From the NCBI GenBank assembly GCA_964016885.1, contig OZ024759.1:15314001-15378000 (forward strand): a stretch of 64,000 nt of DNA, given 5' to 3'. The notes below the pieces were generated by a model. That model was not told the origin of the DNA and searched no databases. It saw nothing but the letters and a program-made list of their open reading frames with translations. The position numbers and the translations under genes were made by a program. Source of the DNA: Eledone cirrhosa (Eukaryota). Shown in pieces: positions 60,516-63,884 of this stretch (position 1 is the first letter of the stretch; every line of letters begins with the position of its first letter).

Positions 60516-61807
60516 TAAATATATATATATATATATAAATATATAAATATATATATATATATATATATACATATATATATATATATATATATATATATAT
60601 ATATACATATGTTTGTGTACGTATATGTATGCATACCTATACACATCTTTCACCATACAGCATATCCTTCTCTCAATATGTATGTGTGTATTTATGTGGT
60701 TCTGTATCTGTTTTTCACGAGTTCATCCTCAGTAATATATTCGTTAAATCGGCAACAACATAATTGCCGGTCTGGGATTACCTCCTAACAATGGCCACGA
60801 CACAAAGACATATATTTAGCTTATATCTGAAAGCTGTCACGTATTTACAGAAGATATTCATGAACGTCTTCGAAAACATTTTTAAACAAAGGAATACAAT
60901 AACGACTATTGACATTCTAAATTTGCCTATATATATATGTATGTGTGTGCGTGCATATATATATATATATATATATATATATATATATATATATATATAT
61001 ATATATATATATATATATATATATATATATGTATATATATATATATATATATATGTATATATATATATATATATATATATATATATATATATATATATAT
61101 ATATATATATGTATATATATATATATATATATATATATATATATGTATATATATATATATATATATATATATATATATATATGTATATATATATATATAT
61201 ATATATATATATATATATATATATATGTATATATATATATATGTATATATATGTATATATATATATATATATATACATATATATACATATATATATATAT
61301 ATATATATATATATATACATATATATATATATATATATATATATATATACATATATATATATATATATATATATATATACATATATATATATATATATAT
61401 ATATATATATATATATATATATGTATATATATATATATATATATATATATATATATGTATATATATATATATATATATATATATATGTATATATATATAT
61501 ATATATATATATATGTATATATATGTATATATATATATATATATATATGTATATATATATATATATATATATATATATATATATGTATATATATATATAT
61601 ATATATATATATATATATATATGTATATATATATATATATATATATATATATATGTATATATATATATATATATATATATGTATATATATATATATACAT
61701 ATATATATATATGTATATATATACATATATATATGTATATATATACATATATATATATATGTATATATATACATATATATATATATATATAGGTTTTAAT
61801 ATAGATG

Positions 61808-61858
61808 AGATTCTACAGGACTAGAACTGTTTCATTCTTTAGAAATCATCAGGAATCT
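61808..61858 (-). ncRNA. Complete type I hammerhead ribozyme motif (family D)
   Basis: AGATTC-CTGATGA-tTTCTaaAGAAt-GAAA-CAG ttctagtc CTG-TA-GAATCT. Confidence 0.75.
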
Positions 61859-62451
61859 GTATATGTATATATATATATATATATATATATATATATATAT
61901 GTATATATATATATATATATATATATATATATATGTATATATATATATATATATATATATATATATATATATATATATATATATGTATATATATATATGT
62001 ATATATATATATGTATATATATATATATATATATATATATATATGTATATATATATATATATATATATATATATATGTATATATATATATATATATATAT
62101 ATATATATATATGTATATATATATATATATATATATATATATGTGTATATATATATATATATGTATATATATATATATATATATACATATATATATATAT
62201 GTATATATATACATATATATATGTATATATATATATATATATATATATATGTATATATATACATATATATATATATGTATATATATACATATATATATGT
62301 ATATATATACATATATATATATATATATGTATATATATACATATATATATATATATATGTATATATATACATATATATATATATATACATATACACATAC
62401 ACGCACACACACATATATATATATATATATATATAGTTTTTAATATAGATG

Positions 62452-62502
62452 AGATTCCACAGGACTAGAACTGTTTCATTCTTTAGAAATCATCAGGAAT
62501 CT
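62452..62502 (-). ncRNA. Second tandem family D hammerhead copy with a GUG cleavage triplet (likely inactive)
   Basis: Same as the 61808 copy except TTCCAC instead of TTCTAC. Confidence 0.65.
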
Positions 62503-63884
62503 GTATATGTATATATATATATATATATATGTATATATATATATATATATATATATGTATATATATATATATGTATATATATATATATGTATATATATAT
62601 ATATATATATATGTATGTATATATATATATATATATATATATATATATATATATATATGTATATATATATGTATATATATATATGTATATATATACATAT
62701 ATGTATATATATATATAGGTATACATATATATGTATACATATATATATATATGCATATATATATATGTATATATATATGTATATATATATATATATATAT
62801 ATATATATATGTATATATATATATATATATATATATATATATATATATATATATATATATATATATATATATATATATATATGTATATATATATATGTAT
62901 ATATATATATGTATATATATATATATATGTATATATATATATGTATATCTATATATGTATATATATATATGTATATATATATATATATATATATATATAT
63001 ATTTATATATGTATATATATATATATATATATATATATATATATATATATATATGTATATAGATATAGATATATGTGTGCATATATATATATACATATAG
63101 ATATATAGATATATACATATAGATATATGTATGGATATGTTTGTTTGCATGCGTTTATATATATGTATATATCTATATATATATATATGAAAAACAAGGG
63201 GAAGAAGAATACTGCATGGTTGCACATGGATTACATATTATAAAATTAGTCCCTCATCAGTGATTTTGCCAACCATCATTGGTATTTCATCGCATTAAAA
63301 ATCAAATACCTCAGGTTGGTGCGAGCAATAACCAAAATAAGATATTCGGACAAGTGAAACGCGTAAAGCGAGTGAGACAAGTAAACAACAGAAGGAAAAG
63401 CAAACTGAAGGTTGGAAAACAGCAAGCCACATGGTAGTTATCCGATCAGCATAATCTGGGTGAATTTCATGAGCGGTCAGAGAAGCAGACCGTACGCCGT
63501 GAGTGCGGTGTGAGAAAGAAGGAATCCCACTAGTAGCGAAAAGGAGGAAGTGAGAAGGGGAGAAACAGATATCTATATACATATATATATATATTTGTGT
63601 TGTCATTTACATATATATGTGTGTATATTTAAATTTTAAAAATAGTGGCATAAATACATTCATATATAGATACATACATACATACGTAAATATATATTTA
63701 TATTTATATATATATGTGAGTGTGTGTGTCTGTTCGTATATACAGACAAACATACATGTATATACATACATACATACATACAGGTATATAAATTTGTGTG
63801 GATGTGTGTCTGTATTTGTGCAGAGACAGTATATGATAAAGTTATATCTGTGTATATATATATATATATATATATATATATACA

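What the first reader, a model, noticed from the sequence alone, without database searches (positions are those of the whole stretch)
61791..62504. Two bare hammerheads in tandem, spaced by ~575 bp of nearly pure (TA)n: a retrozyme-like unit made of microsatellite
Seen: ~70-bp islands at 61791 and 62435 (period ~644) consist almost only of a complete minus-strand HHR (6-bp stem I, CUGAUGA, GAAA, CAG/CUG stem III). One has GUA, the other GUG. A truncated copy lies at 30661 and a fold-back copy at 7252. Known: non-LTR retrozymes are tandem units delimited by HHRs that give monomeric or circular RNAs. Inference: ribozyme-punctuated AU-repeat RNA, or else a simple local duplication.
Basis: partly seen in the sequence, partly recalled or inferred. 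Interest (0 to 1): 0.72.

Follow-up and report, generated by a model that had tools for sequence, protein, structure and literature searches.

The report
Duplicated hammerhead stub of Penelope retroelement
The two ribozyme islands are short front-end pieces of a very common jumping gene (a Hydra-type Penelope-like element) sitting in a TA repeat, and the pair is most likely one insertion copied next to itself, so this is ordinary transposon debris rather than a new repeat-RNA element.

Summary
In detail: two 69-bp minus-strand type I hammerheads (61792-61860, 62436-62504), 644 bp apart, with a 575-bp spacer that is 94% A/T. The retrozyme reading does not hold. The motif is the pseudo-LTR hammerhead of a Hydra-clade Penelope-like element: its core has 12,882 exact matches, and it follows 17 of 20 intact RT-endonuclease frames. 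Such stubs are common: 46 of 84 position-sampled copies start within 8 nt of the core, and 77 of 84 end in (TA)n. The junction shared by the two islands occurs exactly twice in 3 Gb, both here, and both share a flank signature absent from 1.43 Mb elsewhere. So the pair is likely one insertion duplicated in place; an assembly duplicate is not excluded. The upstream copy has GUG (26 matches genome-wide), predicted not to cut. Of more interest: about half of all copies begin at hammerhead stem I, 30 nt after a TATA box, which suggests cDNA that ran off the RNA's start. The scan's earlier notes reached the same Hydra and RNA-start reading on other DNA of this genome.

The parts
61792..61860 (-). 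Copy 1: hammerhead-only stub of a Hydra-clade Penelope-like element. Stem I and core at 61858-61808, GUA triplet, predicted cut 61814/61813, short 3' end about 21 nt past the cut, joined to (TA)n.
   Evidence: (40 scored places at 100% over 68-69 nt)
62436..62504 (-). Copy 2: same stub with the same 5' junction; two differences, one giving GUG at the cleavage triplet (62458), predicted not to cut.
   Evidence: NUH rule in PMC9217987
61861..62435 (.). Spacer: host (TA)n tract with TG/CA interruptions; repeats the block order found left of copy 1.
60935..61791 (.). Left part of the host (TA)n tract; carries the same interruption signature (at 61698) as the spacer (62186, 62262).
62505..63140 (.). 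Right part of the host (TA)n tract; only its first bases match the flank of copy 1.
30661..30718 (-). Separate stub of the same family, 5' end inside the core (no complete CUGAUGA), short 3' end in (TA)n.
7252..7416 (.). Head-to-head fold-back of a sister subfamily: short-ended arm on minus, long-tailed arm on plus; neither arm holds a complete hammerhead.

Best explanation
Each island is the hammerhead-bearing piece of the pseudo-LTR of a high-copy Hydra-clade Penelope-like retroelement inserted in a (TA)n tract, and the pair likely arose from one insertion that was then duplicated in place with its neighbouring microsatellite. Shown: family membership, (TA)n context, two fixed 3' ends, pile-up of 5' ends at stem I, and a junction unique to this locus. 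Inferred: the element's endonuclease nicked the TA tract; its reverse transcriptase started internally about 21 nt past the cut site on an uncut RNA and ran off the RNA's 5' end, which lies at stem I, leaving about 69 bp without promoter. Also inferred: unequal crossing-over or slippage in the 2.2-kb tract later copied a unit of about 644 bp, after which copy 2 changed GUA to GUG. The locus is predicted to be inert: it has no promoter and at most one hammerhead that could cut.
For: The hammerhead follows 17 of 20 intact 758-763-aa frames in sense, 2.2-4.0 kb after the stop, against 2 of 17 intact frames of an unrelated Penelope-like family. The protein has the Hydra motifs. 12,882 exact core matches, control 0. 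In 60 position-sampled loci, 46 of 84 copies start 0-8 nt before the core, 6 at 9-99 nt, 32 at 100 nt or more; 77 of 84 end in (TA)n; 50 have short and 30 long 3' ends. Genome-wide, 12,811 matches reach 5 nt before the core but 6,337 reach 13 nt. TATA to stem I is 30 nt in 91 of 103 copies with a promoter. The shared 34-nt junction has 2 matches in the genome, both here. The flank signature lies left of both islands and is absent from 248 other loci, 1.43 Mb. GUG has 26 scattered matches. Internal initiation on unprocessed RNA is shown in vitro for a Poseidon element (PMC11167929).
Against: No reads were laid on the locus, so real duplication and assembly duplication are not separated. The copies differ at 2 of 70 bases and in the (CA)-rich block beside copy 2, and one of the two differences could also be read as a different 3'-end variant plus a one-base insertion. 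Single bare stubs are the minority: 5 of 46 bare copies, 41 being arms of fold-backs. The transcription start is predicted from TATA and initiator spacing only. A stall of the reverse transcriptase at the hammerhead's edge would give a similar pile-up. The 3'-end classes rest on an X-drop alignment to one reference.
Confidence: 0.7

Rival explanations
1. One real insertion, shown twice by the assembly: two alleles of the same TA tract placed in tandem.
For: Identical genome-unique junction; long low-complexity tract; small differences between the copies such as alleles show.
Against: The duplicated unit fits an ordered block pattern inside one tract, and the signature also repeats within the spacer, as real slippage would give. 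No direct test was possible.
Confidence: 0.17
2. Two independent insertions of the same family into one long (TA)n tract.
For: Same-strand neighbours do arise: 4 of 60 sampled loci have a second same-strand hammerhead within 1.2 kb, and L014 has two different subfamilies about 220 nt apart with an almost pure microsatellite between them.
Against: Those pairs differ in subfamily, ends or spacer. Here both ends and the flanking interruption match, and the junction is absent from all other copies.
Confidence: 0.08
3. A retrozyme-like unit: a transcript through the tract is cut at both hammerheads into a 644-nt AU-repeat monomer that circularises and was copied back as a dimer.
For: Two same-strand type I hammerheads; 644 bp lies within the 51-972 bp range reported for animal retrozyme units, which are proposed to derive from pLTRs (10.64898/2026.07.22.740005). 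A trimer of about 221 bp derived from this family exists elsewhere.
Against: No second locus or source copy with this junction. The upstream hammerhead is GUG and its extra pair stabilises the inactive fold (-11.7 against -4.3 kcal/mol). No promoter at the stubs. The spacer lacks the G bias of the element's own 3' UTR microsatellite.
Confidence: 0.05

Closest known systems
Hydra clade of Penelope-like elements (Craig et al. 2021, PMC8557442), including Hydra-1_Obim
   Same: Single RT plus C-terminal endonuclease frame with RW[K/R], DKT, CxCx5C, CxxC and CxH motifs; canonical 3' hammerhead (many listed ones have the same U after CUGAUGA and U before GAAA, some the same ACAG/CUGU stem III with A at the cut); (TA)n targets; inverted 5'-truncated copies; tail at one end.
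   Different: A different family by eye (hammerhead and protein differ from Hydra-1_Obim; identity not computed). The unit is about 5.1-6.9 kb rather than under 3 kb, because 55-69% of a 2.4-3.7-kb 3' UTR is microsatellite. The tail is about 70 nt rather than 30-40. The finding itself is only a 69-bp piece.
PLE hammerheads scattered as single motifs (Cervera and de la Pena 2014, PMC4209133)
   Same: Most motifs are solitary remnants of truncated elements; opposite-strand pairs at short range are common.
   Different: This motif has its own 4-bp stem III with an 8-nt loop and a short stem II, not the minimal form without helix III.
Metazoan non-LTR retrozymes (PMC7229834; 10.64898/2026.07.22.740005)
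   Same: Type I hammerheads in direct tandem, low GC, link to Penelope-like elements.
   Different: Retrozymes are families of repeated units with a complete hammerhead in each unit and are expressed as monomers and circles. Here the unit is single-locus, one hammerhead fails the NUH rule, and the spacer is host microsatellite.
Poseidon element PAc of Anolis (Frangieh et al. 2024, PMC11167929)
   Same: Two 3' ends downstream of the hammerhead that bracket the tail; AT-rich targets; copies contain both sides of the cut site, so the template was uncut.
   Different: Other clade; the parts read do not describe a pile-up of 5' ends at a transcription start.

Membership tests
Hydra-clade Penelope-like element (parent family) | Single frame with RT followed by C-terminal GIY-YIG endonuclease | tested here: met
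   758-aa frame (713 aa from first Met) with YRDD at 392 and YIG at 647. Pfam GIY-YIG only E 0.002-0.005, below its cut-off, and no RVT_1 match; weak BLAST match to the other PLE's RT, E 1e-8. The paper describes Hydra RT as divergent.
Hydra-clade Penelope-like element (parent family) | RWK motif present, GxKF/Y absent, DKG changed to DKT | tested here: met
   RWR at 83 (R for K), DKT at 161, no GxK[FY] (features)
Hydra-clade Penelope-like element (parent family) | Linker CxCx5C instead of Cx2-5CxxC; CxxC and CxH in the endonuclease | tested here: met
   CxCx5C at 611, CxxC at 711 and 736, CxH at 739, no Cx2-5CxxC
Hydra-clade Penelope-like element (parent family) | Canonical hammerhead near the 3' end, in the pLTR | tested here: met
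   17 of 20 intact frames followed in sense; 18 of 20 also preceded, a count biased by choosing 758-763-aa frames that open inside the hammerhead region
Hydra-clade Penelope-like element (parent family) | Insertion into (TA)n | tested here: met
   77 of 84 copies
Hydra-clade Penelope-like element (parent family) | Generally short (under 3 kb) | tested here: not met
   2.3-kb frame plus 2.2-4.0 kb to the hammerhead; the paper gives length as a tendency, not a diagnostic
Hydra-clade Penelope-like element (parent family) | RT groups with Hydra in a tree | not tested
   Compared by eye only with the published alignment; no tree built
Type I hammerhead ribozyme | Core CUGANGA / GAAA / NUH with three stems | tested here: met
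   Copy 1 has all; 97% of cells paired in 8 distinct variants against 27-48% for slid controls; one compensated pair in stem I (A-U 3, C-G 5); loops vary. The sequences are related, so this is modest support.
Type I hammerhead ribozyme | NUH triplet in copy 2 | tested here: not met
   GUG at 62460-62458 on minus; 26 genome matches of this variant; rule from PMC9217987
Type I hammerhead ribozyme | Self-cleavage | not testable with these tools
   Hammerhead fold -4.2 against minimum -7.6 kcal/mol for copy 1; animal PLE hammerheads cut weakly or need protein
Non-LTR retrozyme | At least two consecutive units, each with a complete hammerhead | tested here: not met
   Two units, but the upstream one is GUG (criterion)
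Non-LTR retrozyme | The unit recurs as a family of monomers and multimers | tested here: not met
   Junction occurs only here. A full genome-wide scan for pairs with other junctions could not be run; among the first 100 listed core matches 1 same-strand pair lies within 1 kb, and its spacer holds element sequence.
Non-LTR retrozyme | Expressed as linear and circular monomer RNA | not testable with these tools
   No RNA holder listed; this says nothing either way

The most novel reading that the evidence does not exclude
The RNA of this Hydra-clade element starts at the first base of hammerhead stem I, and its reverse transcriptase primes internally about 21 or 90 nt past the cut site on uncut RNA and runs off the 5' end. 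About half of roughly 13,000 hammerhead copies, the two islands among them, would then be 'strong-stop'-like products, and long copies would need a template jump or a read-through RNA. This would identify the template and start site of an endonuclease-positive Penelope-like element directly from the genome.
Probability: 0.55. Interest if true: 0.55.

Novelty: new member of a known kind. Interest (0 to 1): 0.25.

Why it matters
As a locus it matters little: it shows how microsatellite-targeting Penelope debris plus local duplication can mimic a two-hammerhead retrozyme, and that a pipeline that asks only for two hammerheads in tandem could count such pairs. The family-level pattern matters more. 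How Penelope-like elements make tandem, inverted and tailed insertions is an open question (PMC8557442, PMC11167929). A sharp pile-up of 5' ends 30 nt after a TATA box, at the hammerhead's edge, gives a cheap test of which RNA is copied. The element also carries 1.4-2.5 kb of (TA/TG)n in its own 3' UTR, so it would spread microsatellite-rich DNA as it moves.

Tried and rejected
1) Rfam: no hammerhead family among the 150 rows shown of 377 for the window; only a weak truncated match on the island. Not used as evidence. 2) Wrong parent: the RT fragment next to L004 belongs to another family (784 aa, RVT_1 plus GIY-YIG) with a different 3' end; only 2 of 17 of its intact frames have this hammerhead downstream, so it was rejected and used as a control. 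3) Spacer as the element's own 3' UTR microsatellite: rejected; in 12 intact elements that tract has 211-452 G against 1-39 C on the sense strand, the spacer 17 G and 19 C. 4) GUG as a conserved variant: rejected; 26 scattered matches, and the 7 loci opened have different ends. 5) Folding z-scores of the islands, -1.3 to +0.5, are uninformative. 6) No RNA holder listed; no reads or contigs were laid, so expression and assembly are untested. 7) A cap-derived extra G at bare 5' ends: seen in 2 single stubs (L014, L181) but not separable from templated bases in fold-backs; not claimed. 8) The first descriptor script failed on a regex fault (redone); one row of the first alignment was on the wrong strand (redone, leaving out the 7252 arm and one identical copy). 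9) The search for the tandem array behind the strand excess found only the known trimer. 10) One of 40 planned random stretches did not exist. Paper searches: 'Penelope' + 'strong-stop' + 'pLTR' 0 papers; 'octopus' + 'hammerhead ribozyme' + 'Penelope' 1 listed; promoter terms 2 listed (PMC11722881 seen as listing only). The library lacks most subscription papers, so older Penelope promoter work (Schostak 2008, cited in PMC8557442, not read) may already cover the start-site point. Supplements of the bioRxiv retrozyme paper were not seen.

Full report
Observation. The window lies at G000:C20:15314001-15378000 in a 3.0-Gb, TA-rich animal genome. The two islands are there as described: 61792-61860 and 62436-62504, period 644, spacer 575 bp and 93.6% A/T. 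On the minus strand each has a type I hammerhead layout: 6-bp stem I, CUGAUGA, a U-U pair with a 3-bp stem II, GAAA, a 4-bp stem III with an 8-nt loop, and GUA (copy 1) or GUG (copy 2). Rfam does not call it, and the hammerhead fold is 3.4 kcal/mol above the minimum for copy 1 and 7.4 for copy 2. Across 8 distinct variants 97% of cells pair, loops vary, and one stem I pair changes on both sides. The motif is a credible hammerhead; cutting is untested.

What the island belongs to. A DNA search gave 620 candidates, and the 40 scored places were 100% identical over 68-69 nt. A 35-nt core has 12,882 exact matches, reversed control 0. In 39 stretches taken at fixed positions (389,800 bases), 8 BLAST matches overlapped the core, diverged subfamilies included. 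Flanks showed a unique region of about 470 bp upstream in long copies, two 3' ends joined to (TA)n, and frequent inverted partners. The first RT found beside a copy belonged to another family: only 2 of its 17 intact frames have this hammerhead downstream, and its own 3' end differs. A second RT was collinear with the hammerhead in L081, L082 (both arms) and L091. Starting from that protein, I took 20 of the 150 listed places, chosen for intact 758-763-aa frames. In 17 of 20 the hammerhead follows in sense 2.2-4.0 kb after the stop; in 18 of 20 it also lies just before the frame, a count biased by that choice. The protein has RWR, DKT, CxCx5C, YIG, CxxC and CxH and lacks GxKF/Y and Cx2-5CxxC, the features given for the Hydra clade (PMC8557442 section 11). 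That paper's supplement lists Hydra hammerheads of the same style, (TA)n targets for almost all families, and an octopus member, Hydra-1_Obim, with a different hammerhead (part 2 of 59 and found passages read). Pfam support is weak (GIY-YIG E 0.002, below cut-off), and no tree was built.

Why the islands are bare. I fetched the first 60 clusters of the position-ordered match list. Of 88 hammerheads found, 4 diverged ones were set aside, leaving 84. Of these, 46 start 0-8 nt before the core (mode 5-6), 6 start 9-99 nt before it and 32 extend 100 nt or more; 41 of the 46 bare copies are fold-back arms and 5 are single, like the window's. The 3' ends fall in two classes, 50 short and 30 long, with 3 running into the frame and 1 other; 77 of 84 abut (TA)n. 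Genome-wide, 12,811 matches reach 5 nt before the core but only 6,337 reach 13 nt, allowing the known upstream variants. In copies that keep the upstream region a TATA box lies 30 nt before stem I in 91 of 103, and 29-34 nt in diverged subfamilies with different spacer letters (this set is not a random sample). The first base of stem I sits in an initiator-like context; the TATA-plus-30 rule and the initiator consensus are recalled, not from a call. Frangieh et al. show in vitro that a Poseidon element starts reverse transcription internally at two sites bracketing the tail, on unprocessed RNA, at AT-rich targets (PMC11167929, parts 1-2 of 4 read). My inference is that bare stubs are cDNAs that ran from an internal start to the RNA's 5' end. 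A stall at the hammerhead's edge is the rival, and RNA data are needed. Solitary hammerheads from truncated elements are already described (PMC4209133, parts 1-2 of 4).

Why there are two. The 34-nt junction between the island's 5' end and the TA tract matches exactly twice in the genome, both here. The pattern of TG/CA interruptions left of copy 1 (61698) recurs left of copy 2 (62186, 62262), with one minus-strand match in the same tract, and is absent from 248 other loci totalling 1.43 Mb. The pair therefore most likely shares one origin at this locus, and no source copy with this junction exists elsewhere. Whether the duplication is in the animal or in the assembly could not be tested. Independent same-strand neighbours occur too (4 of 60 loci within 1.2 kb; L014 with two subfamilies across almost pure microsatellite), so hammerhead-(TA)n-hammerhead is an expected by-product of shared targeting.

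Retrozyme test. Animal retrozymes are repeated units with complete hammerheads, expressed as monomers and circles (PMC7229834, passages; 10.64898/2026.07.22.740005, part 1 of 5 and passages). Here a minus-strand transcript meets copy 2 first, and it has GUG, outside the NUH rule (PMC9217987, passages). GUG has 26 scattered matches. The stubs lack the TATA box, the unit does not recur, and the spacer lacks the strong G bias of the element's own microsatellite. Expression was not testable.

Earlier notes. A look-up by sequence found nothing. Look-ups by words, made after my note had recorded the Hydra, two-end and RNA-start reading, showed that other agents reached it on other DNA of this genome and described true retrozyme arrays there. 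These are unchecked notes and add no support.

Verdict. A real motif and an ordinary locus: a stub of a new family in a known clade, likely duplicated in place. Family identity about 0.97; real local duplication 0.70, assembly duplicate 0.17, independent insertions 0.08, retrozyme-like unit 0.05. Interest 0.25, carried mostly by the family-level start-site pattern, which my three searches did not find in print but which older subscription papers may cover.

Noticed in passing
whole genome G000: Strong strand excess of hammerhead matches (7,425 vs 5,457; 7,864 vs 4,947; 4,404 vs 1,933). This suggests one or more large same-orientation arrays of about 2,000-2,900 units that keep pLTR sequence upstream of the hammerhead. 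Not located.
   Followed up: partly
L242 (G000:C1:67880847-67881316): Diverged trimer, period about 221 bp: pLTR tip, hammerhead, 5' UTR and start of the frame. A true retrozyme-like unit derived from this family; its junction occurs only there.
   Followed up: partly
L121-L140, 3' UTR of intact elements: 55-69% of the 2.4-3.7-kb 3' UTR is (TA/TG)n with strong G bias on the sense strand (12 elements), so the element would carry long microsatellite-rich DNA to new sites.
   Followed up: partly
L063-L080 (P0001); its 3' end also as a palindrome at window 12204-12346: A second young Penelope-like family: 784-aa RVT_1 plus GIY-YIG frame with an overlapping upstream frame of about 455 aa and many intact copies. 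My regex found no canonical hammerhead core in its own 3' end in the part of the output shown. The window palindrome shares its terminal sequence by eye.
   Followed up: partly
L014:1280-1570: Two bare hammerheads of different subfamilies, same strand, about 220 nt apart in almost pure microsatellite: an independent look-alike of the finding.
   Followed up: yes
L243 (G000:C14:6745200-6747400) and L246: Nests of four to six hammerhead arms in alternating orientation within about 500 bp.
   Followed up: no
G000:C2:359517546-359533625: Five same-strand RT matches of the second family at about 3.9-kb period: a tandem array of truncated elements.
   Followed up: no
window 6877-6998, 7550-7583, 56072-56104: A perfect palindrome of another repeat at 6877-6998, and short pieces matching the long tail end of the Hydra family at the other two places.
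   Followed up: no
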